Positions 18,873 through 63,975 are shown, numbered from the stretch's first letter. The stretch: 64,000 nucleotides of DNA from a virus (IMGVR_UViG_3300006990_004842:1-64000), one strand, 5' to 3'. Numbers and translations: made by a program. The notes: generated by a model not told the origin, from the letters alone.

Positions 18873-19868
18873 ATGATTTTGTCTGAGATTAGTGATTTCA
18901 AAAAACGTGAATTAGAATACGAACTAAGACACGAAAAAAATAACTATGCTGTTACCATTAATGGTAGACCATGGAAAGTTGTTGCTGATCGTAAACGTGC
19001 AGAAAAGATGGCACGTACTCTAGTTTCCAAAGGTAAAGATGCTAAAGTGGTAGTTACTGGTGCCCCTATTAGTGAAGGACCAGTTATTCCTGGTAATTTT
19101 CCTAATGCTAGAAATGACAAAATTGCTAAAGCAATGAGCAATGATCATCTTGAACTTGTTGGTGAAAAATTAAATGGTGCATTAGTTGCTGTGAAACAAG
19201 CAGTTGAAAGAGGCATGGGACCAATTGATCTTCTTGACTTACAAGATGCACTAGTCAAAGGTATCAGAGACATTAGACAATTTACTCTACCCGAAGGCAG
19301 TAAACCTCAAAAGCCAAAGCCATACGATAAAAGAAATCCAGTTGCAAAAAATATTGAAAAGTTTAATAGACCAGCAACGCACATGGACAAGAAAAAAGAA
19401 TTAAAGAAAGGCACAATCAAACACAAAGGTAAGGAATTCGAAGAAGCAGTTGATGATGGTCAGTATGTTATAAAAGTAAACATCAATGGCAGAGCAGTAG
19501 AATTTACAGGCTCACAGGGCTTATCAAAAGTACAAGCAAACGATGCTGTAGACATGCTGATATCAGGTAAGAGACCTGGTAACACACCAGATGCCGCACG
19601 ATACCTACCAAAAGATGTAATGTTGTTTAGAAATGGACAACAGATTCCTCACAATCATCAAGATCGTATAAATGAAAAAGAAAATAATTTATACAGCGAC
19701 TTGATGGCATTAGAAGCAAAGTCTAAAAAGAAGAAAACTAAAAAAGACGCCTGCTATCACAAAGTTAAATCCAGATACAAAGTTTGGCCCAGTGCTTACG
19801 CCTCAGGTGCATTAGTACAATGCAGAAAGAAAGGTGCGAAGAATTGGGGCAATAGTTCTAAAAAGTAA
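18873..19868 (+). CDS. modular basic late protein (putative head-internal)
   Basis: MILSEI tag; C-terminal KDACYHKVKSRYKVWPSAYASGALVQCR module typical of marine myoviruses. Confidence 0.65.
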   Translation: MILSEISDFKKRELEYELRHEKNNYAVTINGRPWKVVADRKRAEKMARTLVSKGKDAKVVVTGAPISEGPVIPGNFPNARNDKIAKAMSNDHLELVGEKLNGALVAVKQAVERGMGPIDLLDLQDALVKGIRDIRQFTLPEGSKPQKPKPYDKRNPVAKNIEKFNRPATHMDKKKELKKGTIKHKGKEFEEAVDDGQYVIKVNINGRAVEFTGSQGLSKVQANDAVDMLISGKRPGNTPDAARYLPKDVMLFRNGQQIPHNHQDRINEKENNLYSDLMALEAKSKKKKTKKDACYHKVKSRYKVWPSAYASGALVQCRKKGAKNWGNSSKK

Positions 19869-19879
19869 TAAATACCTAT

Positions 19880-20452
19880 ATGAAGGTAAACGATGCTTTT
19901 GCCAGAGGGCAAACTAAATTTTTCAGATTCTTTGCAGACACGTTCTTTGCAAAACGTTACGGCCATAGAGCAGTAGTTTTAGAAACTATTGCAGGTGTGC
20001 CAGGTATGGTTGCAGGCATGTGGATACACTTAAAAAGTCTACGCCAAATGAAAACTGGCTACGGTCCTACTATTAGAGAACTTCTTGCAGAAGCAGAAAA
20101 CGAACGTATGCATCTCATGTTCTTTATTGAAATAGCAAAACCTAATTGGTTTGAAAGACTACTTATACTTTTAGCTCAACTTATTTTTTGGAACTATTAC
20201 TTCATCATGTATGTGTTCTTTCCTAAAACAGCACACCGCATGGTACATTATTTTGAAGAAGAAGCAGTAAAAAGTTATCAAAGTTACCTAGACATGATAG
20301 CACATGGTGAAATTGAAAATGTGCCAGCACCTCAATTAGCAATTGATTATTATGGTTTGAAACCTGATGCCAAACTGTTCGATATGGTCTACAGGGTACA
20401 ACAAGACGAAAAGAAACACAGTGAGGTTAATTTACGTCTGTCAAACCGATAA
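19880..20452 (+). CDS. aox: alternative oxidase
   Basis: RAVVLETIAGVPGMV, HLKSLR, EAENERMHL, FEEEAVKSY, DE..H diiron motifs. Confidence 0.93.
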   Translation: MKVNDAFARGQTKFFRFFADTFFAKRYGHRAVVLETIAGVPGMVAGMWIHLKSLRQMKTGYGPTIRELLAEAENERMHLMFFIEIAKPNWFERLLILLAQLIFWNYYFIMYVFFPKTAHRMVHYFEEEAVKSYQSYLDMIAHGEIENVPAPQLAIDYYGLKPDAKLFDMVYRVQQDEKKHSEVNLRLSNR

Positions 20453-20460
20453 ATAATTGT

Positions 20461-20799
20461 ATGAAGATAACACAAATACTTTCAGAGACTATTGAAGCAT
20501 CGCAAGATCTCAATGCGTTAATGCAGGGTATCGAACACGACCTAGCAAACAGAGACAGAGAGATAGACGAAAACTTACGCAAGTGGTTCAAGGACAAATG
20601 GGTACGTTTTGGTCCTGATGGTAAAATCAGGGGTGATTGTGCCAGAGGATCAAGTTCAGAAGGCAAACCCAAATGTTTACCACAAAGCAAAGCTCACGCT
20701 CTTGGCAAAAAAGGTCGCAAGACTGCGGCAGGCAGAAAACGTCGAAAAGATCCTAACAAGAATCGCAAAGGCAAAGCCAAGAACGTTAAAACCAAATAG
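20461..20799 (+). CDS. small basic late protein (putative head-internal)
   Basis: MKITQILSE tag; ENLRKWFKDKWV...C...KPKCLP module. Confidence 0.7.
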   Translation: MKITQILSETIEASQDLNALMQGIEHDLANRDREIDENLRKWFKDKWVRFGPDGKIRGDCARGSSSEGKPKCLPQSKAHALGKKGRKTAAGRKRRKDPNKNRKGKAKNVKTK

Positions 20800-20808
20800 G
20801 AGTAATTT

Positions 20809-21009
20809 ATGGATAAGTTAAAATTAATGTATTCAATGGGCAAAGGTTGGCTAATGGCTCGCCTAGGAGAAAGAACATCTTGGGACGGTGGCATACTTGT
20901 AGCAGTATGCGGTGGCTACCTTGTGCTTGGCGGACTTATTGATTTAGTAGCATGGGCAGGTTTACTGTACGGTGCATGGACAATATGGAAAGCAGAATCA
21001 AGCAAATAA
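20809..21009 (+). CDS. small two-TM membrane protein
   Basis: AGGAG RBS; ERTSWDG then two hydrophobic helices. Confidence 0.65.
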   Translation: MDKLKLMYSMGKGWLMARLGERTSWDGGILVAVCGGYLVLGGLIDLVAWAGLLYGAWTIWKAESSK

Positions 21010-21401
21010 TTTGTTCGGTAATTTTCACTACACTCTTAATAGCAGGGTGTAGTGATTCTTCACAAGTCGGCAAAGACGGCTATAAATTTGAAAACAAAGA
21101 GTACGAAAAATTAGACTTAGAAATAAGTTTTGTACTTTTACAAGATCAAACAGAATTCAACGAGCAAGCCAAAATTTGGGCACCTGGTGTAGAAGGCTTA
21201 CAAGCATTTAGTAGACTACAACCAAAAGTTAATCGTTGCATCATATACATCAAAGATCCAGATTGGAAGTATGAGCCAGAATGGATTGGTCACGAAGTGT
21301 CACACTGCGTATGGGGTCGTTGGCACGAAAAAATAAATGCAAAGCAGGCCTCTGAAGGCCATAGACCTGAAAACTTACCTTTACCTGATTCGTCATTATA
21401 A
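20985..21401 (+). CDS. lipoprotein with HExxH motif (putative metallopeptidase)
   Basis: Lipobox IAGC; GHEVSHC..GRWH. Confidence 0.65.
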   Translation: MESRIKQIICSVIFTTLLIAGCSDSSQVGKDGYKFENKEYEKLDLEISFVLLQDQTEFNEQAKIWAPGVEGLQAFSRLQPKVNRCIIYIKDPDWKYEPEWIGHEVSHCVWGRWHEKINAKQASEGHRPENLPLPDSSL

Positions 21402-21423
21402 ATATCCTGTATAAAGGAGAATC

Positions 21424-21567
21424 ATGGCTACTAGAAGTAACAGTTATAAAAGCACTCATGTCGGTATCAAAAAAGGTACCTCTATTGGTAATAGTCCAAA
21501 ACGTATGAAGACTATGAACAAAAGCAAAAAGAGATCTTTTAAGAAATATCGCGGACAAGGTAAGTAA
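21424..21567 (+). CDS. 47-aa basic peptide ending KKYRGQGK
   Basis: TATAAATA at 21397-404, AAGGAG RBS; not in ORF track. Confidence 0.75.
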   Translation: MATRSNSYKSTHVGIKKGTSIGNSPKRMKTMNKSKKRSFKKYRGQGK

Positions 21568-21568
21568 T

Positions 21569-22750
21569 GTGTCAGATCAAATTGAGTTCTATTCAGATTC
21601 AGTACACGTAAATGGTATTGATCCAAAATTTGGAGATGCTGGTAAAGATTTCCCAATTGACTACCCAGTAGATGCTCTCAATTTTTTTGCCATAGAGCAA
21701 AAGTACACTGACGATTGTTGTGTACTAACATCGAGTCCTAAAAGAAATTACCTATACAGTATAAAATGGTTTGCATTTAGAACTGGCGCTCAGATGCCTT
21801 CTAAGTTTTTCCATATACCCACTAATATTTTATCCGATGTCAAAGCCGGCAGATGTAAGATTGCAATCAACAATGCAACTGAAGGTGTTGATTATGACTT
21901 CACGGATACCAACTTACAACTTAAAAAGGTCAACATTAACGGCACTGACTTTTACACATTGTCAGAAGTGTTAGCAAACACATGTAAAGTATATGATTTA
22001 CAAATGGAACACTTTATATATGTGACATCAAACCTGAGACTAAAGCCAAAGATGCCTATTACAGTTGTTAAGTATGATTATCTTTTTTATAACCTGATTG
22101 ATAAAAGTTATGACTATCCTATTCTACATGATCGAGAGCACAAAATTCTCTCATTGAATAAAAAGCAAAGACCACACAGAACAAAATTTATAAATTACTT
22201 AATACAAAGTGACCAACTAGACGGGAATTGTGTTTCGGCCCATTGGTTAGATATGAGAATAAACCCTACACACGAACTTGATCCTAGGTTTCATACTCGT
22301 GAACATCACAACGATGTAGGCAATCCAGAATTGTATTTAGACAGTTATGTAAACTTTGTTAGTGAAACGTGGTTTGAAACTAGCGACCAATATGTTCATC
22401 CTGAAGAAGAGTTGGTGTTAACAGAGAAGTTAGCCAAGCCACTGATGATGAAACTGCCGTTTGTGCTGATTGGAAGAAGTGGCATGTTAGAAGAATTACG
22501 TAACAGAGGTTTCAAAACATTCATGGAATGGTGGGACGAGAGTTATGATTTAGAAACTGACAGTGACATACGTGCTGATATAATCATAGACTTATTTGAT
22601 GAGCTCAATAGTTTTTCAAAATCCGAATGGATAGAGCTCATAAAAGAAATGGAAGATATACTGAACTTTAATTATAACCATTTTATCTATCTTGCAAAAA
22701 AAGAGAACAACAATTTTGTAAAGCAGATTCTAACTATTTTTGATAAATAG
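21569..22750 (+). CDS. glycosyltransferase-like protein, paralogue 4
   Basis: LSLNKKQRPHR; NFVSET..LTEKLAKP...PF...GFKTF..WDESYD. Confidence 0.55.
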   Translation: MSDQIEFYSDSVHVNGIDPKFGDAGKDFPIDYPVDALNFFAIEQKYTDDCCVLTSSPKRNYLYSIKWFAFRTGAQMPSKFFHIPTNILSDVKAGRCKIAINNATEGVDYDFTDTNLQLKKVNINGTDFYTLSEVLANTCKVYDLQMEHFIYVTSNLRLKPKMPITVVKYDYLFYNLIDKSYDYPILHDREHKILSLNKKQRPHRTKFINYLIQSDQLDGNCVSAHWLDMRINPTHELDPRFHTREHHNDVGNPELYLDSYVNFVSETWFETSDQYVHPEEELVLTEKLAKPLMMKLPFVLIGRSGMLEELRNRGFKTFMEWWDESYDLETDSDIRADIIIDLFDELNSFSKSEWIELIKEMEDILNFNYNHFIYLAKKENNNFVKQILTIFDK

Positions 22751-22755
22751 TTTAT

Positions 22756-24612
22756 ATGAAACTATTAGATATCGGCGAAAGTATTACAACTGAATCAGTA
22801 GACTTAGATGCATTGCAATCTAGGTTATATGATCTTGAAGCGGCACAAAAACGTGCCAGAGAAATCACAAAAAATATAAAGTATGTTGATCAGCATATGA
22901 ATATTATCAGCGAACTTGAAACTCTTGCTGACGAAGTTGGCTTACAATTAGATGACTATAATGTACGTCAAGTCTACAAAGCCCAAAATAATGTAGAAAG
23001 TGCAATATACGAACTCGAAGAAGCATTTGAAGATGCAATCAGAGATGCACAAAATGCTGTTGACGATGCTGAATATGATATGGAAGAAGGCCGTATAGAA
23101 GATACATTTGGTACTAAAACCATAGACAAACATGATAAGCCTCAAAAGAAAAAGAAAAAAGAAGTTGACGAATCACTTAAAGCATTAGCAAGACATGTCA
23201 AAGAGGGTGTACCTCTAGTAGACAGTCTTTTTAGATATCAAAGCGAATCCTACTTTGATACATTTATAAAAGCCAAACAATTACGTGAAGCAGGTTCACT
23301 TCCTGAACTAGATTGGGAAAGTGAAGAAATGCTCGGTACCGACATAGGTGAAAGTGTTGCGTTGAAAGGTATTGGTAGAGTTTGGTTGGATGTTCCGTAT
23401 CTAAATGAAAGTGATGACGAATATGATGATTGCGAAGAATGCGGTGGTGATGGTATTGACCTAGACACACTTTATTATGGTTCGGACTATGACAAGGCAG
23501 GCACTGAAACTGATTGTAGTGCATGTGGTGGAACTGGGCAACAACCTAAAGAAGAAAGTGTCAATGAAGGTCCAGAGGTATTTGGAGAGAAGAAAGAAGA
23601 AGCAATGAAAATGCTGAAAATTCTTCACAAGCAATATGTACGCACAGGTCAAATAAATGCATTTGAGTTACCAGTGTTACTTAGACAGCACATGCCAGAA
23701 CTTAGTAAGCAAGAGGTTAGACAAATTACTGGTGAGTTCTTTGACAACTTCAAAGCATATGAAGAAAGCCAACAGTTTAATGAAATGTATGATAAAGATC
23801 TTATCAGCATGTTAGCAAGGTTTGAAGACGATTGTAATGAGTTTGGATATTATGGTGATACTGATGTTGTTACAATTAATAACCTAATACAACAAGATAA
23901 ATTAGAGGATGCCGCAGAAGAAATGGCTGGCGCAATGTCAGACCAAGATGGTGGCAGTGATAGATTTGATTATGTATACGACTTAGCAAAAGACACACTA
24001 GAAGATTATATGTATGAAATGTCTGAAGCAAAAGGCGATATCAGAAAAGCGGCAATGGGTGTAGGCCTAGCAGGAATGTTAGGACTAGGCATAGGTGCAG
24101 TAGACAAGAAACTTGATCAACAAGCATACAGTGCCAGTGAACAATTACCAAAACTAGAACTATACTTAGACCATGCTAAACAGCAAGGTGATCAACGTAT
24201 GGTAAAACAACTGCAAGATAGATTACGCAATCATAAATTTAGATTGGAGATGGGCAAAGGTGATGTTGTTGGTTCAAATGGTCAACCTATTGAAGTTGTT
24301 TATGATAAAGAAGGCAAAGCACAAGCACCTGTCAAAGAAGCAGAATATCAAGGTAAAAAAGTACAACTTAACAAACCAAAACGTGGTGGCAGTAAAAAAT
24401 ATTATGTTTACGTTAAAACACCTAAGGGCAATGTTAAGAAAATATCATTCGGTGACGTCACAGGACTTAAAACTAAAGCGAATAACAAGAAAGCCGCTAA
24501 GAGTTTTGCCGCAAGACACAACTGTGAAAAGAAAAATGATAAACAGAAAGCCGGTTACTGGGCATGTCGTTTACCGCGATATGGTTTAGTAAAAGGTGGT
24601 ACGTGGTGGTAA
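22756..24612 (+). CDS. large acidic modular late protein (putative head-internal)
   Basis: MKLLDIGE tag; CxxCGGxG pair; C-terminal KVQLNKPKRGGSKKYYVYV...SFAARHNC...YWAC module (DUF6321-like). Confidence 0.7.
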   Translation: MKLLDIGESITTESVDLDALQSRLYDLEAAQKRAREITKNIKYVDQHMNIISELETLADEVGLQLDDYNVRQVYKAQNNVESAIYELEEAFEDAIRDAQNAVDDAEYDMEEGRIEDTFGTKTIDKHDKPQKKKKKEVDESLKALARHVKEGVPLVDSLFRYQSESYFDTFIKAKQLREAGSLPELDWESEEMLGTDIGESVALKGIGRVWLDVPYLNESDDEYDDCEECGGDGIDLDTLYYGSDYDKAGTETDCSACGGTGQQPKEESVNEGPEVFGEKKEEAMKMLKILHKQYVRTGQINAFELPVLLRQHMPELSKQEVRQITGEFFDNFKAYEESQQFNEMYDKDLISMLARFEDDCNEFGYYGDTDVVTINNLIQQDKLEDAAEEMAGAMSDQDGGSDRFDYVYDLAKDTLEDYMYEMSEAKGDIRKAAMGVGLAGMLGLGIGAVDKKLDQQAYSASEQLPKLELYLDHAKQQGDQRMVKQLQDRLRNHKFRLEMGKGDVVGSNGQPIEVVYDKEGKAQAPVKEAEYQGKKVQLNKPKRGGSKKYYVYVKTPKGNVKKISFGDVTGLKTKANNKKAAKSFAARHNCEKKNDKQKAGYWACRLPRYGLVKGGTWW

Positions 24613-25503: not shown

Positions 25504-25524
25504 CACTACCTTATAAATAGTTGC

Positions 25525-26079: not shown

Positions 26080-26608
26080 AGGCATTGGTAAAGCATTACA
26101 TGACACACTGATCTATAAAGGTCACACTGTTTATGGCTTTAGTAGACAAAACAGTTACGATATCAGTGACCAAGAAGACCGTAATGCAATTATACATAAA
26201 GTTAAAGAATGTGATGTTTTTATAAACAATGCCTGGTTAGATTTTTACCAAGTAGATTTATTCAATGACATATTCGAACAGTGGAAAACTGATAAGACAA
26301 AAACAATCATAAACATAAACAGCAGAAGCAAATACGGCATTAGCGGTAATCCAAGTTATTCTGCTACTAAAAAAGAACTTGCAAAAGTTGCATACAAAGG
26401 AATGTTTGACATGGATAAAAAATGTCGAATCATAAATGTAAATCCTGGGTATGTTAAAACTGAAATGACCAAAAACAAACACGACACTATACCTATGTTA
26501 TCTGCTACAGAAGTAACAGACATGATATTATGGACTCTTAATCAACCTCAGCATATAGAGATTGGAGAAATAAGCATGTGGCTAACTTCTTTAGATCATG
26601 ATAAATAG
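26051..26608 (+). CDS. short-chain dehydrogenase/reductase
   Basis: ITGHTKGIG, FINNA, YSATK, PGYVKTEM. Confidence 0.9.
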   Translation: MKIGITGHTKGIGKALHDTLIYKGHTVYGFSRQNSYDISDQEDRNAIIHKVKECDVFINNAWLDFYQVDLFNDIFEQWKTDKTKTIININSRSKYGISGNPSYSATKKELAKVAYKGMFDMDKKCRIINVNPGYVKTEMTKNKHDTIPMLSATEVTDMILWTLNQPQHIEIGEISMWLTSLDHDK

Positions 26609-26613
26609 TGTAT

Positions 26614-28887: not shown

Positions 28888-28888
28888 T

Positions 28889-30978: not shown

Positions 30979-30983
30979 ATATC

Positions 30984-31493: not shown

Positions 31494-31501
31494 ACAAGTA
31501 T

Positions 31502-35127: not shown

Positions 35128-35155
35128 ATTATATAACATGCCAAGTAATTGTCAA
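35128..35155 (-). promoter_or_regulatory. early promoter
   Basis: TTGACA-16-TATAAT, followed by a roughly 100-nt leader. Confidence 0.75.
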
Positions 35156-35199
35156 CCTATATATGCTGTGTAAAGGTATTTATTGTAGTAAATAACATT

Positions 35200-54228: not shown

Positions 54229-54259
54229 TGCTAAGTCTCCAATTGCTTAACAGTATTTA

Positions 54260-55754: not shown

Positions 55755-56502
55755 TGAGGGCCTCCATTAACTTAATATGCATCTGTTTGTGCCCTGATAT
55801 ATTGAGGTGGTAATCATTTATATAATTTGCATTGATATCATTGTTTTCATCGTTCCAAACATCATATATTTCAGCACCAAATGTTTCATTAAATAAGGTA
55901 CCTGGGAGCAAGTAGTGTGTTGATAAATTAAAAACATCAATATGTTTTAATGTTGTTATTTGCTCCCAGGTAGATAGTAAATGTAGTTTTACATTGTAAT
56001 TTTTACAGAGTGCAACTACTTGATTTAGAATTCTAGTGTTGTTGTATTCAAAAAATACAGGTACTTCCCATTTATCTGTTAAAAAATTATGTTCGCTTTC
56101 TTTACTTAATTGTCCTTTAGGGTGTACATGGTATTCTTTATGCTCTATATCATCAATAAAAAATGCTCGTGTGTTTCCACTAACACAAAAAAAGATTGTG
56201 TAATTAATGTTAGGTTGATAAATGTTCTTGAAAAATTTTGTCAATTGGACTAATTGAAACTCTATTGAACTACCAGGGAAAGCAAAATTAATGTATTCAA
56301 CATCTCTTTCTTTACTGGTCAAACTTGCAAAAGAATACTCAGGGTGCGACCAATCTCTCGTTAAATTTGGAAAACGCCCTGTGTGTTTTAATTCTTGATG
56401 ATGTAATTCTGGTGTTTTAGATTTATCTTGTTGGTATATTTCGTCATACAAACCTGTACCAATGACCCAACTATCACCAAACCATACGTCTGTTTTATTC
56501 AT
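55744..56502 (-). CDS. SGNH hydrolase-like protein, paralogue 5
   Basis: WFGDSWVIG; NFAFPGSS; DYHLNISGH. Confidence 0.6.
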   Translation of the reverse strand: MNKTDVWFGDSWVIGTGLYDEIYQQDKSKTPELHHQELKHTGRFPNLTRDWSHPEYSFASLTSKERDVEYINFAFPGSSIEFQLVQLTKFFKNIYQPNINYTIFFCVSGNTRAFFIDDIEHKEYHVHPKGQLSKESEHNFLTDKWEVPVFFEYNNTRILNQVVALCKNYNVKLHLLSTWEQITTLKHIDVFNLSTHYLLPGTLFNETFGAEIYDVWNDENNDINANYINDYHLNISGHKQMHIKLMEALSEN

Positions 56503-56564
56503 AATAATTTATCAACCACTACTAATATATAGTAGTTGTACGGTTTAATTTAATTAATTATTGA

Positions 56565-56879
56565 TTACCAGGCAACGTTCCAGATTATGGTTTGAGTATC
56601 ATTCTGTTTGATGTTTACTCCGTAACCTAAATCTGTAAAGTATTTTTTGACGTAATTTATTTGATCTACTTTTGCGGCGTCAGTTGTAATACTAAAGTAT
56701 GCCTTGTAAAAAGCATTACTATCAGTCATTGTTGTACCGCTTGACACGTTTGCATACAACACACCAGCAGATACATTTGCTAGAATAGCACTTTCTATAC
56801 TACGAACTTCGCCATGTATAGTTACATTGTTCCTAGTATCTATTCTTGCATCTTTAGCATTTGTAAATATGTTTGCCAT
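56565..56879 (-). CDS. small probable virion protein
   Basis: Last gene of a late operon; A..AR, YF..LGY, terminal W..W. Confidence 0.6.
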   Translation of the reverse strand: MANIFTNAKDARIDTRNNVTIHGEVRSIESAILANVSAGVLYANVSSGTTMTDSNAFYKAYFSITTDAAKVDQINYVKKYFTDLGYGVNIKQNDTQTIIWNVAW

Positions 56880-56880
56880 A

Positions 56881-57228
56881 TTAATTCGCCTTTATATCAC
56901 TTAGTGCTTTGTCGCCTGCCATTTTACCAACATCAACTGTAGGTTCTGCATCAGTGTCAACATCGCCACTTAATTCATCTGCAGGCACAATTTTTTCTGA
57001 ATCTGCACTACTTGCAAATCCTGAATCTCTTACTTTTTTAACAAGTGTGTCTATGTCAATTAAATGTCCTTGTTTTGCTAACAAGTCCTGAAATAATTCT
57101 GTAGGTATAGACTTTGCATCCATTCTAGTCATCACTTCAGACGATAGCAAGTCACCGATAGCATCATCCATTTCGCTATCTGCTGTTTTTTGTGCATACT
57201 CCAGCAATGTGACTTCGCGAATTAACAT
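56881..57228 (-). CDS. small acidic putative head protein
   Basis: MLIREVTLLE tag; V.KMA..A C-terminus. Confidence 0.6.
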   Translation of the reverse strand: MLIREVTLLEYAQKTADSEMDDAIGDLLSSEVMTRMDAKSIPTELFQDLLAKQGHLIDIDTLVKKVRDSGFASSADSEKIVPADELSGDVDTDAEPTVDVGKMAGDKALSDIKAN

Positions 57229-58550
57229 TAAATTTCAGCTCTGCCCAATGGCTCCTCTTCAGGACCAGCACTTGCAGGAATATTATCTTCTAAGTCACCC
57301 TCAGGTTCGCCTAGTCCCATATCGCCAGTATCTAAATCGTCGCCGCCTAAATCACCAGTGTCAGCCATTGCTCCACCTGCTACAAAACCTTCTCCTGAAA
57401 GTTCTGCAACTGCTTGATCAAAGCCTGTTTTAATTGCTTTTGTTGCTTCTAAGTGCTGAGACAACAATCCGTTAATGTTATCTGAAAAACTAACTGCTTT
57501 GTCTCCGCCCATTTCGCCACGTACTTGATCAGCAATAGCAGGCAAGTCTTCGTTCATCATACGACCTAATCTTTCTACTTGATCTTGAATATCATCTGCT
57601 AATGCACGTACAGCCATAACAACTTCTGCTTCTTCAACGTTTACTTCTTCAGAAATCATTTCACTTAAGATATCATCAAACATGCTATTAAATTCTTCTT
57701 TAACGTTTGATTTTTTTGATTCTGTTTTATTCATTGCATCTGTAACTTCTTCAGGTTTCATACCTAATTCTTTAGCAATGTCTTCGATACTTTTTCCGTC
57801 TTTCTTTAGTTTATGCATGTATTGAATACTGTCATTTAATTTTCTTTCTGCAATTTTGCGACCAAACATTTGAATACCACTTACAACTGCATCTTCTTCG
57901 AGACCATTAAGGAAACCAACCACTGAGTCTCTGCTTTTACCTGATACTTCTGCAAATTTACCTAACGTTTCTTCGATAGCATCGTAACTGCTAGTGTCAA
58001 CAATTTCAACACCAATCTCTTTAGCAAGTTCTGATAATAGACGTTCATTAAGATCGCTGTCTATACTTTCTGCACTTGCCATAACAGCACCGCTACCACA
58101 TTCATCCATGTAGTCTTTTGCCGCTTTGATAACAATAGTCTTTGCTGTGTCATCGTCGTAAGCAAAACGATTGTCCATTCTGTAACGGTTCATGCATTCT
58201 GTACATGCTTCATCCATTGTATAACCGCTGTCCATAAGTTGTCTTACACTGTCAGAAATCATGCCTTTCATTTCCATATATGCAGGTGATTCTGCATACA
58301 TGCCTTCTGCTAACATGACGTCTATTGCATCTCTAATACCTAAAAATTTTGCATATTCAGGTTCTAGTTGAAACTTTTTATTGCTGTTGCGAAGTTTGAC
58401 TACGGCCAAATTAGCAGTTTCTTTTAACTCAAGCAACTTTCTCTTTGGCAAAAATGCCTTCTTAAAAGAAACACCAAACTCTTCGCCCAACACTTTTGAT
58501 ATTTTGCCTAGTTTGGAACTAGGTGTTGGATTTAATTGATTTAATAACAT
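57228..58550 (-). CDS. acidic helical protein, probable prohead core/scaffold type
   Basis: Glu-rich, many (I/L)xE sites, EEAEVVMA..D..E.L..M..EDLP; TAAATA at 58583-88. Confidence 0.55.
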   Translation of the reverse strand: MLLNQLNPTPSSKLGKISKVLGEEFGVSFKKAFLPKRKLLELKETANLAVVKLRNSNKKFQLEPEYAKFLGIRDAIDVMLAEGMYAESPAYMEMKGMISDSVRQLMDSGYTMDEACTECMNRYRMDNRFAYDDDTAKTIVIKAAKDYMDECGSGAVMASAESIDSDLNERLLSELAKEIGVEIVDTSSYDAIEETLGKFAEVSGKSRDSVVGFLNGLEEDAVVSGIQMFGRKIAERKLNDSIQYMHKLKKDGKSIEDIAKELGMKPEEVTDAMNKTESKKSNVKEEFNSMFDDILSEMISEEVNVEEAEVVMAVRALADDIQDQVERLGRMMNEDLPAIADQVRGEMGGDKAVSFSDNINGLLSQHLEATKAIKTGFDQAVAELSGEGFVAGGAMADTGDLGGDDLDTGDMGLGEPEGDLEDNIPASAGPEEEPLGRAEI

Positions 58551-58615
58551 AGTGGTTTCCTATTCATAACTGTAATAGTACTTATTTATCATTTTATTGA
58601 GAATTGTGAAAGGAC

Positions 58616-59068: not shown

Positions 59069-59243
59069 TTTTTCTGACCTTTTGTAGTATGTTTCTACAA
59101 TACATGTCTTCTGCCATGTATCTTGTTCTCTCGTCAAATTTATTTATTGGACAAAACTTTTCAAAATCTATTTTATTGAACAGGCGAGTCTCATCTCTGG
59201 TGATGAAACTTAAATTACCATTTTTGCATTTAACTGCTTTCAT
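59019..59243 (-). CDS. small hypothetical protein
   Basis: Starts 2 nt after the previous stop. Confidence 0.55.
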   Translation of the reverse strand: MKAVKCKNGNLSFITRDETRLFNKIDFEKFCPINKFDERTRYMAEDMYCRNILQKVRKNDIVGFKVYPQKSKIE

Positions 59244-59245
59244 GT

Positions 59246-59800
59246 TTAACCGCCGGCATGCATTGCGGCCATATGTGCTTTATATTTTTTAGTGCCTTTC
59301 TTATGTGGGCTTTTACCTTCGTCTAAACCTAATTCTGCTATAGCATCTTCTATTGCTTTTCCTGTGTCTCTGCCACGATAAAACTCTGGCATGTTATCAG
59401 ACATAAATGATTCTATTTCATCTTTGCTTTCGAAGTTATCTAAACCTTTTTCATTAACTAATGCAACTAATATACTTACAGCCTGTTCTCTTTTGGGATT
59501 GCTTTCAGACACTTTCTTTTTCTTAGAAAACACAGAAGGATTTTGGCGTCTGTGCAGTTTGCCCATTGGCATGGCAAAACTTCCTATTGCTCCGGCTACT
59601 GTTTCTTTTAATGATTCTACGATTTCAAAATCATCATCTGATGTACCACTATAACGTGATGCTCCTACAGCACCTGATTTGATCCTGGCCTTTTGTTTGG
59701 CACTATTGTCGCTCATAGCCGTAACATGATATACTTTACCAGTTTTTTTATGCTTTACTTTGTAGTGCTTAAATGATTCTGTTAGGTCTGAAATCTTCAT
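59246..59800 (-). CDS. modular basic late protein (putative head-internal)
   Basis: MKISDLTE tag 5 nt after TAAATA; terminal EGKSPHKKGTKKYKAHMAAMHA module. Confidence 0.7.
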   Translation of the reverse strand: MKISDLTESFKHYKVKHKKTGKVYHVTAMSDNSAKQKARIKSGAVGASRYSGTSDDDFEIVESLKETVAGAIGSFAMPMGKLHRRQNPSVFSKKKKVSESNPKREQAVSILVALVNEKGLDNFESKDEIESFMSDNMPEFYRGRDTGKAIEDAIAELGLDEGKSPHKKGTKKYKAHMAAMHAGG

Positions 59801-59811
59801 AATAGTATTTA

Positions 59812-60978
59812 TCAATCATAAGATACGTTGGGAATAGAATAACCTAAACTGTTTAAGCCGTTAATAACTTGGTTTGCATAGTATGTAGCATTTGCTCCAG
59901 CAATCACATCAGTTTCAACACGTACTTCTACGTTTGCTCTATCACTAAGTCCTGCTGTACCACTGTAATTACCAGTACCATTTATAACAGCATTAACATA
60001 ATCTTTATATCCGCCATAACTACCAGGCCCTGTGTTTACTTGGAACAACACACTTCTAAAATATGAACTGCTATTTGCTGTTTCTGCAGTTGCTATTGTA
60101 CTTCTCAGTGAAGTAATATCAGTGGTATGTTGAGTAGTTGGGTTAGTTGGATACGTACTAGTTGCACCATACGGTGAGTTTTCATCTGAGAATACCAAAT
60201 TAATGACCTGCGTAACATTTGAATTTGAACCCATTGTTTCCATTTGGCTCCATACTCTTTCATTGCCTTCTTCTGTGAATGAAACATTATTATCATAAGC
60301 ATCACCGTCGTCATCATAAAAAGGTAATAATGCATTTTTAAGTACATCATTTTTCATAGTACGTAAAGGTGTTAACGAACTATTCATACTACCACTGCTG
60401 TCAAAGAATATATTGATTTCTGTTTGCGTATCAATTTGATTTTGCGGTGCGGCAAACAATGTGCCACCTGAATATAAAATCATTACTCTTGCTGTACCCG
60501 AAGTTGCACCACCTTGTGTTACTGTGCTTCTCAATGTTGTTCTATTACTGTAAAGATAGTTTGTTTCATCAACTGTAGAAACTGTGGGATCAAAATGTGT
60601 AAACAATCTATCAGGATCTGCACTATCACCAATAGTAATATTTGTATTAGCATCAGCACCAGCCCAATTTGTTAATGCTTCTATACTAACACTTAAAACT
60701 GTTGTGTTAGCAGGAACAACTATCATATTAGTAGTACTGCTATCATAAGAAATAACGTTGCTAAATGTTCTATTAATGTTTATACTTTCCAATTGAGAAA
60801 GTGTTTGTGCCTGGTCTGCATTTTCACCGGGTGCTACTTTTGCTCTGTTGAGATCGTTGTTTCTATCAAACAGAGAAATGTCATCATCACTGGAAACAAT
60901 AGTTGCTTGATATTCTCTACCAAGTTCAATATTTCCACTTACACCAGTTATGCCATAATTTTTAACTGAATCTACCAT
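59812..60978 (-). CDS. virion protein paralogue C fused to vWA-like domain
   Basis: MVDSVKNYGITGVSGNIELG N-terminal half like 18315; FFDSSGSM MIDAS motif, later FSDE. Confidence 0.65.
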   Translation of the reverse strand: MVDSVKNYGITGVSGNIELGREYQATIVSSDDDISLFDRNNDLNRAKVAPGENADQAQTLSQLESININRTFSNVISYDSSTTNMIVVPANTTVLSVSIEALTNWAGADANTNITIGDSADPDRLFTHFDPTVSTVDETNYLYSNRTTLRSTVTQGGATSGTARVMILYSGGTLFAAPQNQIDTQTEINIFFDSSGSMNSSLTPLRTMKNDVLKNALLPFYDDDGDAYDNNVSFTEEGNERVWSQMETMGSNSNVTQVINLVFSDENSPYGATSTYPTNPTTQHTTDITSLRSTIATAETANSSSYFRSVLFQVNTGPGSYGGYKDYVNAVINGTGNYSGTAGLSDRANVEVRVETDVIAGANATYYANQVINGLNSLGYSIPNVSYD

Positions 60979-61556
60979 TATTTTTTCTTCCCACCTTTCA
61001 TGTTAGCACACCAGTGATACATTTTACCACGTTCACCACTGTACTTTTTTGCTTTTGCTCTTAAACTTGTTACAGAACCTTTACAACTGGCTCCTGCTTT
61101 TTTAACTCTGCCCGGTCTGCTTTTGCCTTTTTTCTTACCGTCAGCAAAGTTTTCGTCTAATTTACTTGCGTCTATATACCAAACTTTTGCTTTGCCTTTT
61201 GTACTAATAAGTCCTATAAGTCGTGTGTTGCCTGCTATAAGTTCTAATTTACCGTTTGGCATTTTCATCACAATAGGCATTTCTATTGTACCTGACTTCA
61301 TTGCTTTTTTCAATCTTTGAACTTTTTCAGGTTCTAAATCTGCAAGTGTCTCTGATCCATCTGCGCCAGTGTTGCCTATCTTCTTTACAATATTACTATT
61401 TACATTAGCAACTTTACCAGTCTGTGCTAATTCTATCCATCCATCTTTACCTAACTTGTCTAAGAACGGATAGCGATTTGCTTCTTCCCATTCTAGATCA
61501 AACTGTGGCTCAGCAAAGTTTTCATCTAGTATACTTATAATTTCACTTATCAGCAT
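60978..61556 (-). CDS. ParB/Srx-like domain plus basic module
   Basis: MLISEI tag; PIV...LIAGNTRL; ENFADGKKKGKSRPGR...HWCANM. Confidence 0.65.
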   Translation of the reverse strand: MLISEIISILDENFAEPQFDLEWEEANRYPFLDKLGKDGWIELAQTGKVANVNSNIVKKIGNTGADGSETLADLEPEKVQRLKKAMKSGTIEMPIVMKMPNGKLELIAGNTRLIGLISTKGKAKVWYIDASKLDENFADGKKKGKSRPGRVKKAGASCKGSVTSLRAKAKKYSGERGKMYHWCANMKGGKKK

Positions 61557-62274
61557 CGTCGATGTCCTTTTTCAAATCATCTAAGTCTGCTTCTATATCA
61601 TATAGTCTAAACTTATTTACTTTGTCTTCTTGTCCTGGTTTTAACTCAGGATGAAATTTCATTTCAACTATTCTAGCATCTTTCTTTATAGACTTACCAT
61701 CCACTAATACTTCAACTTCAAATGGTACATGTTTTTCATACCAATATGCCATCTCATATCCGCCATCGTCTAATAATTTTACTAATAGTCCTCTGTCGTA
61801 ATCTTTTTCTTCTGCTTTGAGTACTTTCATTTCACCACGTGGTAAATTCAAAGCAATGTTCCTATCACCTGATGTAGGTTTATCTTCTTTTACTTTTTCA
61901 TTTTTGACACAGTTAGGCACACGTTTTCCAAACATGGTTTTCATGCCCTTCTTCTTGTAGCCTTTCCAACATTTTTCAACTATTGTTTCTACAATGCTTG
62001 GGTCTATTTCTTGTGCTGTAAATTGTTGCATCAATTCAACAATGTCATCATCGTGATCTAAAATTTTATAATCAGCATCAACTATGAGTGCTACATTGTC
62101 TTCGTAACCATGATTCTCACCACTAAGTACATGCATTCCATTACTTAATTCTATATGGTCTTCTTGGTTGACCCATTGATGAATAACTGATTCTACTTCT
62201 TCATGTGGCAGTTTACCTAACTTAGGTGCTGTATTAAGAGTAGTTAAATCTTCTATGATTTCGTTAATAAGCAT
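61543..62274 (-). CDS. modular late protein
   Basis: MLINEIIE tag; EKCWKGYKKKGMK...VPNCVK module. Confidence 0.7.
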   Translation of the reverse strand: MLINEIIEDLTTLNTAPKLGKLPHEEVESVIHQWVNQEDHIELSNGMHVLSGENHGYEDNVALIVDADYKILDHDDDIVELMQQFTAQEIDPSIVETIVEKCWKGYKKKGMKTMFGKRVPNCVKNEKVKEDKPTSGDRNIALNLPRGEMKVLKAEEKDYDRGLLVKLLDDGGYEMAYWYEKHVPFEVEVLVDGKSIKKDARIVEMKFHPELKPGQEDKVNKFRLYDIEADLDDLKKDIDDADK

Positions 62275-62278
62275 GTTA

Positions 62279-63433
62279 CTACATCATGTCCTTGTACTTG
62301 TCTTTGAATATTTTCCAAGACTCTTGTTCATCATACATCCATTTAGGATCTTTGCGTTTTTCTTGAAACCAATGTGTAAAGTTTTCAATAGGACTCTGGT
62401 TTCGATTATATTTCCATTCATTATCTAATTCGCGTCTAGCAGGTACCATAACATCTAACATGCCATCTCCCGAGTCTTTTCTAGGATTCTTAAAGATGTC
62501 ATGATTTCTCTGAAACGTTTGGCTTCTACCCCTTCTAGGATTATTAGATCTTTTGTAAGTTTTGATATCTTCAGCAGTGTGTGCAAAAGTTTCCATTATG
62601 GAATCTAACTTTGCTTCAACCTTGATTGCTTTTACATACTTTTTATTTAATTCTAAGACAACATCTAATCTATGGTGACCGTTTATTAATACATTGTTTT
62701 CATCAATTATTAAAGGGTCGTAATTATTACTAGTAATTTTTTCAAATGCCTTTTTATGCATTTTTTTAGATCTGTCTTTTTGTACAGTGACTATACTTTC
62801 AGTTTTTATAAAACCTTTTTTATATGATATGTTTGCATCTAGTAAATCTTGTTCATTAATTTGAGGCATGTCTTTTCTTTCATACACGCCTTTGCCAAAG
62901 TCAAATCCACTGCTTGATTTCTTTTTCTTCTTTTTCTTTTTAGAATTTTTACTAGGACGTAATCCATAAGCAAAAAAGTGTCCTACGCCACGTGGTTCTG
63001 CAGTAGGGGTGGAGTCAGGGGAATTCGAATCGCCAGTATCGGCAACTCCGGAATCTGCAGACCCGCTGTCTCCACTTGAACCTGTTGAACCGCCATCACC
63101 ACCAGCACTTGCACCAGCACCAGCACCAGCACCAGCACCAGCACCAGCACCAGCACCCGCACCACCGCCTCCGGCTTCAGCATCTATACGTGATTGCGAA
63201 CGTACTTGTTGCTTATTTTCTTGTTCCCAACGTTGAATAAGTGCTCTTGCATCACGTGCCATAACATGGAATCTTGCTTGAAGCTCACGTTGTATTTGTA
63301 CTTTACCCATGCCTCGTTGTACAAGTTTTGATATTACATCGGTGTACACCGAATAATCATGCATTCCGTACTTGTCGTAAGTGAGGTCTGGAAACCTCAT
63401 ATCGCCTTCTCTAAAAAATTCGTTTAATTTCAT
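62279..63433 (-). CDS. modular late protein with (GA)n linker and ParB-like domain
   Basis: MKLNEF tag; R.DMPQI; PLIID...INGHHRL. Confidence 0.65.
   Translation of the reverse strand: MKLNEFFREGDMRFPDLTYDKYGMHDYSVYTDVISKLVQRGMGKVQIQRELQARFHVMARDARALIQRWEQENKQQVRSQSRIDAEAGGGGAGAGAGAGAGAGAGAGASAGGDGGSTGSSGDSGSADSGVADTGDSNSPDSTPTAEPRGVGHFFAYGLRPSKNSKKKKKKKKSSSGFDFGKGVYERKDMPQINEQDLLDANISYKKGFIKTESIVTVQKDRSKKMHKKAFEKITSNNYDPLIIDENNVLINGHHRLDVVLELNKKYVKAIKVEAKLDSIMETFAHTAEDIKTYKRSNNPRRGRSQTFQRNHDIFKNPRKDSGDGMLDVMVPARRELDNEWKYNRNQSPIENFTHWFQEKRKDPKWMYDEQESWKIFKDKYKDMM
63111..63164. repeat. (GCACCA)n hexanucleotide tandem repeat
   Basis: Seven perfect units, GCACCC, then GCACCA; encodes Gly-Ala repeats on the minus strand. 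Confidence 0.92.
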
Positions 63434-63975
63434 TCTGATAACCTTATAACCCCACAGCCAACTCTGTCACCAGCGTTTCCTGTTTTCAAACTTTCCTCGT
63501 CACCACCTTTGCCTAAATCATCTACATCAGCATGTACAACTATTGCTCTGCCTACAACACTTCGATCGCCATGTAAATCAACACGTGGTAATACTAAATC
63601 TATTTTTGCAACACCACTATCATCTGCAACAATATTGCCTAAGTCGCCTACATGGCCTTCTTTGATATTGCCATGATCGACTCCGTCTGGATTGTAGTGT
63701 GGTCCTGCACTTGCACAACCGTCACTTAAATCACCAAACTCATGTATGTGAAATCCATGCTCACCAGGTTCAAGTCCACTTACTTCACCCACTAACATTG
63801 TAGGCTGACCTGGATTTTGCTTAAACAAAAAATGTCCTACAACATCACCCTCTGTGTGTTCTAGTTCGCATTTTGCTTTGATTGTTTGTTCTGCTTCTTG
63901 TAAACCTTTGATACCTGCACAATCACAACCTTTTGCTTTTGTTCTAGGGCAACTTTTTACTTGTGAAAATTTCAT
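63430..63975 (-). CDS. sodC: Cu/Zn superoxide dismutase
   Basis: HGFHIHEFGD, C.SAGPHYNP, HVGDLGNI, RAIVVH, TGNAG.R..CGVI. Confidence 0.95.
   Translation of the reverse strand: MKFSQVKSCPRTKAKGCDCAGIKGLQEAEQTIKAKCELEHTEGDVVGHFLFKQNPGQPTMLVGEVSGLEPGEHGFHIHEFGDLSDGCASAGPHYNPDGVDHGNIKEGHVGDLGNIVADDSGVAKIDLVLPRVDLHGDRSVVGRAIVVHADVDDLGKGGDEESLKTGNAGDRVGCGVIRLSE

What the first reader, a model, noticed from the sequence alone, without database searches (positions are those of the whole stretch)
18873..63975. Candidate capsid-cargo system: shared N-terminal tag on modular, Glu-cleavable late proteins
Seen: otherwise unrelated late proteins begin alike: MILSEI (18873), MKITQILSE (20461), MKLLDIGE (22756), MLIREVTLLE (57228-), MLLNQL (58550-), MKISDLTE (59800-), MLISEIISILDE (61556-), MLINEIIE (62274-), MKLNEFFRE (63433-), MKFSQV (63975-). 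Their bodies are mosaics of short modules that often start right after a hydrophobic-x-E site, e.g. LDE|NFA twice in 60978-61556, IDE|NLRKWF, LDE|GKSPHK, IVE|KCWKGY, VKE|AEYQG. Established: T4 internal proteins carry an MKTYQEFIAE-type capsid-targeting sequence and the gp21 prohead protease cuts after (I/L)xE. Inference: these are packaged polyproteins, processed into small basic Cys/His peptides and enzymes and possibly delivered with the DNA, forming a shuffleable cargo platform.
Basis: partly seen in the sequence, partly recalled or inferred. Interest (0 to 1): 0.8.

Follow-up and report, generated by a model that had tools for sequence, protein, structure and literature searches.

The report
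Capsid-targeting leaders on phage cargo
A fragment of an uncultured marine giant T4-type phage puts the same 8-12-residue leader, ending in the glutamate motif that T4-type head proteases cut, on about a dozen unrelated proteins, most likely to load them into the capsid; this extends a known T4 mechanism and has not been measured here.

Summary
Fourteen of 125 ORFs in the 98.6-kb record begin M-[KLI]-h-x-[EDQN]-h. Column shuffles give 2.3; phage T4 has 2 of 262. The tagged genes sit in two blocks (18.9-24.6 kb; 56.9-72.7 kb). One hit, a TonB-type receptor, is a false positive.

In nine of the rest the leader ends in h-x-Glu at residues 8-12. This resembles the T4 capsid-targeting sequence and the gp24 and gp22 propeptides.

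The record is about 27% of a jumbo phage and holds no head genes. Three relatives and phage PA5oct carry the T4 head set, including a gp21-type protease.

Conserved modules start directly after h-x-Glu, whether that Glu ends a leader or lies inside a protein. Glu preceded one module in 57 of 57 independent contexts.

Relatives fuse or split the same parts. They replace the tagged Cu/Zn SOD with a tagged Fe/Mn SOD.

The minus-strand block is syntenic with a PA5oct block of virion proteins found by mass spectrometry.

Cleavage, packaging and ejection are all inferred. h-x-Glu is not enriched overall in these proteins.

The scan had already reported the same system on related DNA from other genomes.

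Verdict: a new variant of T4-type cargo loading, confidence about 0.6.

The parts
18873..19868 (+). 331-aa protein with a weak leader (only LSE at residue 5). It holds DUF7230 (aa 153-189, nt 19329-19439) and a C-terminal two-Cys basic module that follows ALE| (nt 19716-19865).
   Evidence: The same module follows VNE|, LLE| and MTE| in cyanophage proteins.
20461..20799 (+). 112-aa protein built of a 9-aa leader ending LSE| (20461-20487), a first module (20488-20571), then IDE| and a basic two-Cys module (20572-20796). A late-promoter-like ATAAATA lies at about 20449-20455.
   Evidence: The first module follows a leader in L046 and an internal IYE| in L020 and L021.
22756..24612 (+). 618-aa protein with an 8-aa leader ending IGE|. 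Its C-terminal basic module follows VKE| (24340-24609). ATAAATA lies at about 22743-22749.
   Evidence: In the relative G002 the same module follows LEE| in a 171-aa tagged protein.
56881..57228 (-). 115-aa acidic protein with a 10-aa leader ending LLE|.
   Evidence: Orthologues in L020, L021, L022 and G002 keep tag-type leaders.
57228..58550 (-). 440-aa protein with a weak leader in this genome; orthologues start MFLKDF.. and MQIKDF... It is a homologue of PA5oct virion structural protein gp247.
   Evidence: phrog_14154 'virion structural protein'. BLASTP E = 2.6e-19 over the full length to PA5oct 156341-157528, which is annotated ESI-MS/MS.
59246..59800 (-). 184-aa protein with an 8-aa leader ending LTE|. 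An internal leader-like stretch ends LKE| before a module at aa 67. LDE| precedes the C-terminal His-rich basic module (59249-59317). ATAAATA lies at about 59806-59812.
   Evidence: Both modules follow a leader or an h-x-Glu in L020 and L022.
60978..61556 (-). 192-aa protein with a 12-aa leader ending LDE| and a ParB-like middle part. A second LDE| precedes a 57-aa two-Cys basic module (60981-61151).
   Evidence: The module was found in 3586 protein clusters. Glu precedes it in 57 of 57 unique contexts, and 75 of 118 full-length carriers begin with the tag.
61543..62274 (-). 243-aa protein with an 8-aa leader ending IIE|. IVE| precedes a CW-x-GY two-Cys module (aa 101-131, about 61882-61974).
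   Evidence: The module has 1195 representative hits. P3 is hydrophobic in 112 of the 120 contexts that have a nearby Glu.
62279..63433 (-). 384-aa protein with a 9-aa leader ending FRE|, close to the T4 gp24 propeptide. It has Gly/Ala-rich and poly-Lys linkers and a weak ParB-like nuclease domain (aa ~184-294).
   Evidence: phrog_620; PDB 5k5d, E = 0.015; T4 gp24.
63430..63975 (-). 181-aa eukaryote-type Cu/Zn superoxide dismutase without a signal peptide. A 27-aa extension (tag-like start, Cys-rich basic stretch) ends LQE| three residues before the native SOD1 start.
   Evidence: Sod_Cu, 4e-44; residues 32-180 align to SOD1 residues 3-152. It is fused to ParB-like parts in L022, and replaced by a tagged Fe/Mn SOD in L021 and G002.
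63975..64000 (-). 3' end of a 2144-aa tagged multi-domain gene (63975-70409 of the record) that runs off the window.
   Evidence: Orthologues of 2120 and 1693 aa keep MKF-type leaders.
56565..56879 (-). Untagged 104-aa neighbour, a homologue of PA5oct virion protein gp245. It marks the block as virion genes.
   Evidence: E = 2e-19; ESI-MS/MS.

Best explanation
The shared N-terminus is a capsid-targeting propeptide of the T4 type. It is an 8-12-residue amphipathic acidic leader, with consensus M-(K/R/L)-(I/L/F)-x-E-(I/L/F)-x(1-2)-E. It would dock the protein onto the scaffolding core while the prohead is built, and the clade's gp21-type prohead protease would then remove it by cutting after h-x-Glu.

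The same motif at internal joints would let the protease cut fused forms into separate parts. These parts are enzymes (Cu/Zn SOD, ParB/Srx-like proteins, a ligase-like DUF6267 protein, a 2144-aa multi-domain protein) and ultra-conserved 30-60-residue basic two-Cys peptides. All of them would stay in the head with the DNA.

Shown here: the tag, its clustering and its portability; the position of h-x-Glu at module starts; the T4-type head genes in relatives; and virion location of homologues in PA5oct. Inferred: binding to the core, cleavage, retention in the head and ejection into the host.
For: (1) Enrichment and clustering of the leader. T4 itself has 2 of 262 ORFs matching the strict pattern.

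(2) Among 153 distinct leaders, the next h-x-Glu ends at residue 8 (51 leaders) or 9 (38 leaders). That is a defined length, as in T4.

(3) The T4 record shows the same design. IPII and IPIII carry a 10-aa leader ending IAE|, gp24 one ending LRE|, gp22 one ending IAE|, and gp21 has LIE at residue 9. The review PMC9026906 places targeting at residues 4 and 7 and processing at residues 8 and 10, which is the same i/i+3 hydrophobic spacing.

(4) Relatives G001, G002 (91% complete) and G004, and PA5oct, encode the head set in T4 order: portal, a small tagged protein at the gp67 position, an acidic core protein, a PF03420 protease, a scaffold dense in h-x-Glu, and a gp23-like capsid protein.

(5) Module starts. 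For the CW module, P3 is L/I/V/M/F in 112 of 120 contexts, against a 27% background. For the NFADG module the query excluded the Glu, yet P1 is Glu in 57 of 57 contexts. Of 118 full-length carriers, 75 are tagged, against 98 of 2113 clade ORFs (odds ratio 36, p = 4e-60).

(6) A leader and an internal joint are interchangeable in front of five different modules.

(7) Fusion and fission occur. The L022 protein joins tag, SOD, a ParB-like part and a module, whereas this genome has separately tagged genes. Non-homologous Fe/Mn and Cu/Zn SODs both carry the tag at the same locus.

(8) Virion evidence. The block 56.5-71.3 kb is syntenic with PA5oct gp254-gp245, of which 9 of 10 genes are ESI-MS/MS virion proteins. 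Genes 57228, 56565 and 70941 have direct homologues there. Three of four fully tagged PA5oct proteins are MS-detected (PMC7318152). S-SCSM1 ORF29, a mosaic of the same modules each after h-x-Glu, is annotated 'virion protein' (PMC9602691).

(9) Recognisable replication and metabolic enzymes are untagged.
Against: No protease, scaffold or capsid gene lies in this fragment. The link to a protease rests on relatives.

There is no proteomic or N-terminal sequence datum for any tagged protein of this clade.

h-x-Glu is not enriched in the bodies of tagged proteins, so many internal sites may be chance. The invariant Glu before a module could instead be part of the module's fold.

The leader is one residue shorter than the T4 CTS, and homology between them cannot be shown.

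Four or five leaders (18873, 57228, 63430, 63975, and the DUF6267 gene) lack a site at residues 8-12.

In PA5oct the pattern is barely above background (9 of 434 ORFs), and the enrichment of MS-detected proteins among them is weak (p = 0.03 to 0.09).

That S-SCSM1 ORF29 was itself MS-detected rests on the GenBank label. The supplement that is held did not list it.
Confidence: 0.6

Rival explanations
1. The leader and the h-x-Glu joints are processing signals, but the products are not capsid cargo. Another protease would cut them in the cytoplasm or the envelope. Candidates are the phage subtilase at 43793-45367 or the ClpX-type unfoldase at 6647-7906, which might read an N-terminal degron. The products would then act in the infected cell or in another virion part such as the tail.
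For: The window encodes an S8 subtilase and a ClpX homologue. Tail-fibre-like genes are interspersed with the tagged genes (Mtd_N in 51214-54228; three fibre-like paralogues). PA5oct mass spectrometry shows virion location but not location in the head.
Against: The motif is the T4 gp21 motif. Subtilases and ClpXP are not known to be Glu-specific (established knowledge). The protein at the gp67 position inside the head-gene row carries the tag in four genomes. The modules also occur in T4-like cyanophages.
Confidence: 0.12
2. The leaders and joints are recombination linkers. Short conserved boundary sequences would let cassettes be swapped between genes, and their retention would reflect shared descent and shuffling, with no targeting or cleavage role.
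For: Fusion, fission and cassette exchange are extensive. One module is 88-100% identical across thousands of proteins, which suggests recent exchange. An earlier scan note reports a 19/23-nt direct repeat at such a boundary.
Against: Conservation is at the level of pattern, not sequence. There are 44 or more different leaders and variable P2 and P3 residues. Codons for the same residues differ between the genes. The distance to the Glu is fixed at residue 8 or 9. The pattern matches a known protease motif.
Confidence: 0.1
3. The similarity reflects translation initiation, not protein function: A/T-rich early codons, or a downstream element for the leaderless late mRNAs of this phage.
For: ATAAATA lies 4-5 nt before the ATG of several genes and no Shine-Dalgarno sequence is visible. 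MK-type starts are common in AT-rich genomes.
Against: Only 3 of the 12 genes with that box carry the tag. Tagged genes that are translationally coupled inside operons also have it. Synonymous codons vary. Positions 5, 6 and 8 are constrained as amino acids. Leader-like stretches recur inside fused proteins. AT-rich T4 and PA5oct show background rates.
Confidence: 0.04
4. The leader targets proteins to the prohead core but is not removed, or the internal sites are not used. The proteins would then be packaged whole and the 'peptide cassette' idea would be wrong.
For: T4 data show that targeting and processing are separable: Asp at position 10 blocks cutting but not packaging (PMC9026906). Overall h-x-Glu density is ordinary. 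SPN3US work shows that processing of ejection proteins varies between related phages (PMC5694885).
Against: Glu, not Asp, is invariant at module starts (57 of 57). Stand-alone proteins made of a leader plus one module exist, for example the 65-aa protein of G002.
Confidence: 0.1

Closest known systems
Phage T4 capsid-targeting sequence (CTS) on internal proteins IPI, IPII, IPIII and Alt, removed by prohead protease gp21
   Same: A short N-terminal leader is shared by otherwise unrelated, often basic, non-essential proteins. Hydrophobic residues are spaced i/i+3 and the leader ends in (L/I)-x-Glu. The genes lie in variable regions. The phage lineage has gp20, gp21, gp22-like and gp23 head genes.
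   Different: The leader is 8-9 residues, not 10-19, with a different consensus (M-K-I-x-E-I-x-E against MKTYQEFIAE). The repertoire is far larger. It includes enzymes such as SOD and ParB-like proteins, a protein of more than 2000 aa, and multi-module proteins with internal sites. Nothing has been measured.
T4 prohead core proteins gp22, gp67 and gp68, cut by gp21 into small internal peptides
   Same: Proteins dense in h-x-Glu would be cut into short peptides, some of which stay in the head. The clade's scaffold and acidic core protein look like this. The small protein at the gp67 position carries the tag.
   Different: The cassettes here are conserved basic two-Cys peptides spread over thousands of environmental proteins, not acidic scaffold debris.
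Polyvalent proteins of phages (Iyer et al. 2017, PMC5512222), including P1 DdrB with a ParB-like domain packaged in the head
   Same: Several unrelated effector domains, ParB/Srx-like ones among them, are strung together in one late-gene product that is predicted to be packaged and delivered. Fused and solo forms alternate between genomes.
   Different: No embedded zincin-like or other peptidase domain was found by Pfam. Release would depend on the prohead protease acting in trans at h-x-Glu joints, and loading on a short N-terminal leader.
Propeptides of inner-body and ejection proteins of phiKZ-like giant phages (SPN3US, 201phi2-1), cut by the gp21-related protease at (S/A/G)-x-Glu
   Same: In giant phages, many head-internal proteins are processed after Glu by a T4-related protease, and paralogues share conserved N-termini.
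   Different: Those propeptides are mostly longer than 100 residues. The lineage is unrelated (a nucleus-forming clade with virion RNA polymerases). The leader here is short and T4-like.
Pseudomonas jumbo phage PA5oct (closest cultured relative; terminase 58.6% identical)
   Same: The genomes are syntenic over about 50 kb and share the head-gene row, with a tagged 73-aa protein between portal and protease. The PA5oct block that corresponds to 56.5-75.8 kb consists of MS-verified virion proteins.
   Different: PA5oct has only four or five tagged genes and none of the basic cassettes or the SOD. The marine clade has expanded the block.

Membership tests
T4-type CTS / internal-protein cargo system | A short N-terminal propeptide shared by otherwise unrelated proteins | tested here: met
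   14 of 125 ORFs match, against 2.3 expected. There is no paralogy between them.
T4-type CTS / internal-protein cargo system | The propeptide ends in the gp21 motif (L/I)-x-Glu at a fixed distance from Met1 | tested here: met
   Nine of 13 genes have the site at residues 8-12. Among 153 distinct leaders the Glu falls at residue 8 or 9 in 89. Four or five leaders in this genome lack it.
T4-type CTS / internal-protein cargo system | The genome encodes a gp21-family (S77) prohead protease and a scaffolding core | tested here: inconclusive
   Absent from this 27%-complete fragment. Present, in T4 gene order, in three related records and in PA5oct.
T4-type CTS / internal-protein cargo system | Sequence relatedness to the T4 CTS | tested here: inconclusive
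   The pattern is the same but the register is shifted by one residue. The closest likeness is between the leader of 62279 and the T4 gp24 propeptide. The sequences are too short to show homology.
T4-type CTS / internal-protein cargo system | The proteins are in the virion with the propeptide removed | not testable with these tools
   The evidence is indirect only: PA5oct homologues and tagged PA5oct proteins are ESI-MS/MS virion proteins, and S-SCSM1 ORF29 is labelled 'virion protein'. No N-terminal data exist.
T4-type CTS / internal-protein cargo system | The leader is sufficient to package a foreign protein | not testable with these tools
   This needs a cultured host-phage pair.
Polyvalent proteins (Iyer et al. 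2017) | Two or more unrelated effector domains in one polypeptide in a phage late or virion context | tested here: met
   The L022 460-aa protein joins a SOD, a ParB-like part and a basic module. The 2144-aa gene gives only a weak Amidoligase_2 hit. In this window most parts are separate genes.
Polyvalent proteins (Iyer et al. 2017) | An embedded peptidase (zincin-like MPTase, assemblin-like and others) for self-processing | tested here: not met
   Pfam and PHROGs scans of the tagged proteins and of the 2144-aa protein found no peptidase domain.
phiKZ-type inner-body / ejection protein propeptides | Long (over 100 aa) propeptides in a chimallivirus-type genome | tested here: not met
   The leaders are 8-12 aa. 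The terminase and head genes are T4/PA5oct-like.

The most novel reading that the evidence does not exclude
Ocean T4-type phages (this jumbo clade, and in longer mosaic form the cyanomyoviruses) share a general cargo system. A minimal 8-9-residue address and Glu-delimited joints would allow any enzyme or peptide to be loaded into the head and released by the prohead protease. A family of near-invariant basic two-Cys peptides, present in thousands of protein clusters, would be the main cargo, acting as DNA-condensing or anti-defence molecules that enter the host with the genome. The swap between Fe/Mn and Cu/Zn SOD would then mean that a packaged antioxidant enzyme is itself under selection.
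Probability: 0.35. Interest if true: 0.8.

Novelty: new variant of a known kind. Interest (0 to 1): 0.6.

Why it matters
If the reading is right, T4's capsid-targeting trick is not a peculiarity of T-even coliphages. It would be a widespread system in abundant marine phages with a much larger and more varied cargo: SODs of two folds, ParB-like nucleases, a ligase-like enzyme, giant multi-domain proteins and ultra-conserved basic peptides.

It would assign a role to several families of unknown function (DUF7230, DUF5872, DUF6321, phrog_727, DUF6267 leaders). It would predict exact mature N-termini that can be checked in existing virion proteomics data. It would also offer a very short natural address for loading foreign proteins into large phage heads.

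Tried and rejected
1. Complex prediction of the G002 prohead protease with the 65-aa leader-plus-module protein gave no verdict (score 0.00, controls not run). It counts neither for nor against.

2. tblastn of three tagged proteins (57228, 62279, 60978) against cultured phages found nothing. Megablast of 18-30 kb found nothing. The PA5oct homology of 57228 appeared only with local BLASTP.

3. I tested whether h-x-Glu is enriched in the bodies of tagged proteins. It is not: observed/expected is 1.14, against 1.16 in untagged proteins. This argument was dropped.

4. I tested whether the record is circular with the terminase continuing across the ends. It is not; the terminase ORF simply runs off the contig end.

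5. A PDB sequence search with the 2144-aa protein and with the DUF6267 protein found nothing useful.

6. The held supplement of the S-SCSM1 paper does not list ORF29 or its accession. Its virion status therefore rests on the GenBank label.

7. Literature searches for DUF7230, and for capsid-targeting leaders or prohead-protease processing in jumbo phages and cyanophages, found no prior description of this system.

8. The leaderless-translation idea was rejected.

Full report
WHAT THE DNA IS
The window is the first 64 kb of a 98,634-bp IMG/VR virus record. CheckV rates the record 27% complete, so it is a fragment of a phage of roughly 350 kb. Its large terminase, cut by the contig end, is T4-like and 58.6% identical to that of Pseudomonas jumbo phage PA5oct. 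About 50 kb of the record is syntenic with PA5oct 129-165 kb. Many related marine contigs exist in IMG/VR. Recognisable enzymes include ClpX, peptide deformylase, glutaredoxin, both ribonucleotide reductase subunits, ThyX, MetK, a UvsW-like helicase, gp32, DnaB, a primase and an exonuclease.

THE OBSERVATION
All quoted N-termini and junctions are present as stated. The pattern M-[KLI]-[ILFVY]-x-[EDQN]-[ILFV] occurs on 14 of 125 ORFs. Column shuffles give 2.3 +/- 1.4 and none of 20,000 reaches 14. The rate at internal positions predicts 0.45. One hit is a TonB-type receptor with a signal peptide and is a false positive.

A regex-free ranking by BLOSUM similarity of residues 2-9 puts the same genes on top. 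The other high scorers in that ranking are mainly two true paralogue pairs. The tagged genes cluster: ten lie among fifteen consecutive minus-strand genes (56881-72749) and three lie in 18873-24612. They are not paralogues of each other by BLASTP. Phage T4, which is equally AT-rich, has 2 hits in 262 ORFs. PA5oct has 9 in 434 with a relaxed pattern.

THE LEADER HAS A DEFINED LENGTH AND ENDS IN GLU
I collected 153 distinct tagged N-termini from this clade and from environmental proteins. In these the next h-x-Glu ends at residue 8 in 51 cases and at residue 9 in 38. Untagged N-termini show a flat distribution. Position 5 is Glu or Asp in 138 of the 153, and positions 3 and 6 are I/L/F/V.

In this genome nine leaders have the site at residues 8-12. 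The leaders of 18873, 57228, 63430 and the 2144-aa gene do not.

For comparison I took sequences from the T4 record rather than from memory. IPII and IPIII begin with a 10-residue leader ending IAE. IPI has a 19-residue leader ending ITE. gp24 begins MAKINELLRE, gp22 begins MLKEQLIAE, and gp21 has LIE at residue 9. The review PMC9026906 states that CTS residues 4 and 7 carry targeting and residues 8 and 10 carry processing. [quoted passage not shown] The leaders here have the same i/i+3 hydrophobic spacing and the same P3/P1 logic, one residue shorter.

THE PROTEASE
This fragment has no PF03420 protease and no gp23. Three related records do have them: G001 (250 kb), G002 (340 kb, 91% complete) and G004 (83 kb). 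Their terminases are 68-82% identical to the one here. Each carries, in T4 order:
- a gp20-like portal;
- a 66-70-aa protein with a tag-type start, at the gp67 position;
- an acidic protein of about 260 aa;
- a gp21-type protease (E = 1e-25 to 1e-28);
- a 370-aa scaffold with about 23 h-x-Glu sites in its first 200 residues;
- a gp23-like capsid protein with an LLE|G site in its propeptide, like that of T4 gp23 (PLLE|GEG).

PA5oct has the same row, with a 73-aa tagged protein between portal and protease.

MODULE BOUNDARIES
A phmmer search with the 32-residue CW-x-GY module of ORF 61543 found 1195 representative clusters. When the module is N-terminal it is preceded by a tag-type leader ending in Glu; 36 different such leaders were seen. 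When it is internal, 120 of 134 unique contexts have a Glu within five residues upstream. P3 is then L/I/V/M/F in 112 of those 120, against 27% for any Glu in the same proteins.

The second search used the 57-residue basic module of ORF 60978, and the query began after the Glu. It found 3586 clusters at 88-100% identity. Glu precedes the module in 57 of 57 unique contexts, and P3 is mostly V/I/A/F/L. Of the 118 full-length carriers, 75 begin with the tag, with 44 different leaders. In the clade as a whole 98 of 2113 ORFs are tagged, giving an odds ratio of 36 and p = 4e-60.

Within the clade, five different modules follow a leader in one protein and an internal h-x-Glu in another.

Cyanomyovirus proteins hold the same modules in other orders, each after h-x-Glu. 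The examples are S-PRM1 AXN58544, P-TIM68 AIR93496 and S-SCSM1 ORF29. Pfam knows some of the modules only as DUF7230, DUF5872 and DUF6321.

FUSION, FISSION AND REPLACEMENT
A relative (L022) encodes one 460-aa tagged protein that joins the Cu/Zn SOD, a ParB-like part and the basic module. In this genome these are separate genes, each with its own leader.

Two relatives carry a tagged Fe/Mn SOD where this genome has the tagged Cu/Zn SOD. These are two unrelated folds with the same activity, the same address and the same locus.

The Cu/Zn SOD is of the eukaryotic cytosolic type and has no signal peptide. Its 27-residue extension ends LQE three residues before the native SOD1 start.

The DUF6267 protein has a K-x-DG motif typical of ligases. 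It carries a 22-residue leader here and a 10-residue leader ending in h-x-Glu in another lineage. It has no leader in the cyanophages S-CAM9 and P-HM1.

VIRION EVIDENCE BY HOMOLOGY
The PA5oct record marks proteins found by ESI-MS/MS in virions; the paper reports 93 (PMC7318152). Nine of the ten genes gp254-gp245 are so marked. This PA5oct block is syntenic with 56.5-75.8 kb here. ORFs 57228-58550 (tagged), 56565-56879 and 70941-71345 have direct homologues in it.

Three of the four PA5oct proteins with a full leader are MS-detected, against 90 of 457 others (p = 0.03).

S-SCSM1 ORF29 is labelled 'virion protein' in a record whose paper reports a 45-protein virion proteome. Its neighbour ORF30 starts with a near-T4 CTS.

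WHAT ARGUES AGAINST, AND THE RIVALS
h-x-Glu is not enriched in the bodies of tagged proteins, so the number of sites proves nothing. The invariant Glu could belong to the module fold.

A role in translation is unlikely. Only 3 of the 12 genes with the ATAAATA-N4/5-ATG box are tagged. Coupled genes inside operons are tagged as well. Codons for the same residues differ between genes.

A purely recombinational role for the boundaries fits the shuffling. It does not fit the pattern-level conservation or the fixed distance to the Glu.

Processing by another protease (the S8 subtilase at 43793-45367) or recognition by the phage ClpX cannot be excluded. Neither explains the match to the gp21 motif or the tagged protein inside the head-gene row.

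The complex prediction gave no verdict.

COMPARISON AND NOVELTY
The mechanism proposed is that of the T4 CTS and internal proteins, together with gp21 processing of core proteins. The domain content overlaps the 'polyvalent proteins' of Iyer et al. (PMC5512222), but without their embedded peptidase. The long propeptides of phiKZ-type phages (PMC5694885) are a more distant parallel.

I found no paper that describes this leader, these cassettes or their Glu boundaries. Earlier follow-ups of this scan reached the same reading on related contigs from other genomes. I saw those after forming mine. They are not independent evidence.

I rate this a new variant of a known kind, with confidence 0.6 in the capsid-cargo reading and interest 0.6.

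Noticed in passing
window 6647, 19880, 20461, 22756, 25525, 26614, 30984, 35200, 42647, 46472, 59800; record 80954: A T4-late-promoter-like ATAAATA lies 4-5 nt before the ATG of 12 genes and no Shine-Dalgarno sequence is visible. This implies leaderless or near-leaderless late mRNAs. Both tagged and untagged genes have it.
   Followed up: partly
window 63430-63975; L021:1582-2121; G002 194765-195304: Related phages carry either a eukaryote-type Cu/Zn SOD or an Fe/Mn SOD at the same locus. Both lack signal peptides and both carry the leader.
   Followed up: partly
record 73462-74817 (L001:9562-10917): The DUF6267 protein contains a K-x-DG motif like the nucleotidyl-transferase motif I of ligases. 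In cyanophages it lies next to the cytidyltransferase T4-GC190, which Sullivan et al. 2010 list as an experimentally determined virion protein. A cytidyltransferase-like gene is also in this window at 26608-28887.
   Followed up: partly
window 60981-61151: The 57-aa basic two-Cys module is 88-100% identical across more than 3500 protein clusters of very different length and context. That degree of conservation is unusual for a phage peptide.
   Followed up: partly
window 17695-18300, 18315-18866, 59812-60978: Three paralogues share an N-terminal region of about 180 aa (27-43% identity) and have no family match. They may be fibre or adaptor proteins interspersed with the cargo genes. ORF 51214-54228 has an Mtd_N tail-fibre N-terminus.
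   Followed up: no
window 668-1705, 10819-11973, 14995-16296, 21569-22750, 35149-36345, 36342-37520; record 79029-80102: Seven dispersed paralogues of one unannotated family of about 350-430 aa (BLASTP E down to 1e-38).
   Followed up: no
window 54924-55754, 55744-56502: Tandem paralogues that begin with a GDS(W)-type motif typical of SGNH/GDSL hydrolases. A similar gene interrupts the head-gene row of G002 (273683-274498).
   Followed up: no
window 6647-7906 and 43793-45367: A phage-encoded ClpX (zinc finger plus AAA domain; 44% identical to the PA5oct homologue) and a 524-aa S8 subtilase.
   Followed up: no
record 97264-98634: The large terminase ORF runs off the contig end. It aligns from residue 86 of the PA5oct terminase. 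IMG/VR labels the record 'provirus', which does not fit its content.
   Followed up: partly
window 62279-63433 and relatives L020, L021: Long Gly/Ala-rich and poly-Lys (8-12 K) linkers separate the modules in the ParB-like cargo proteins.
   Followed up: no
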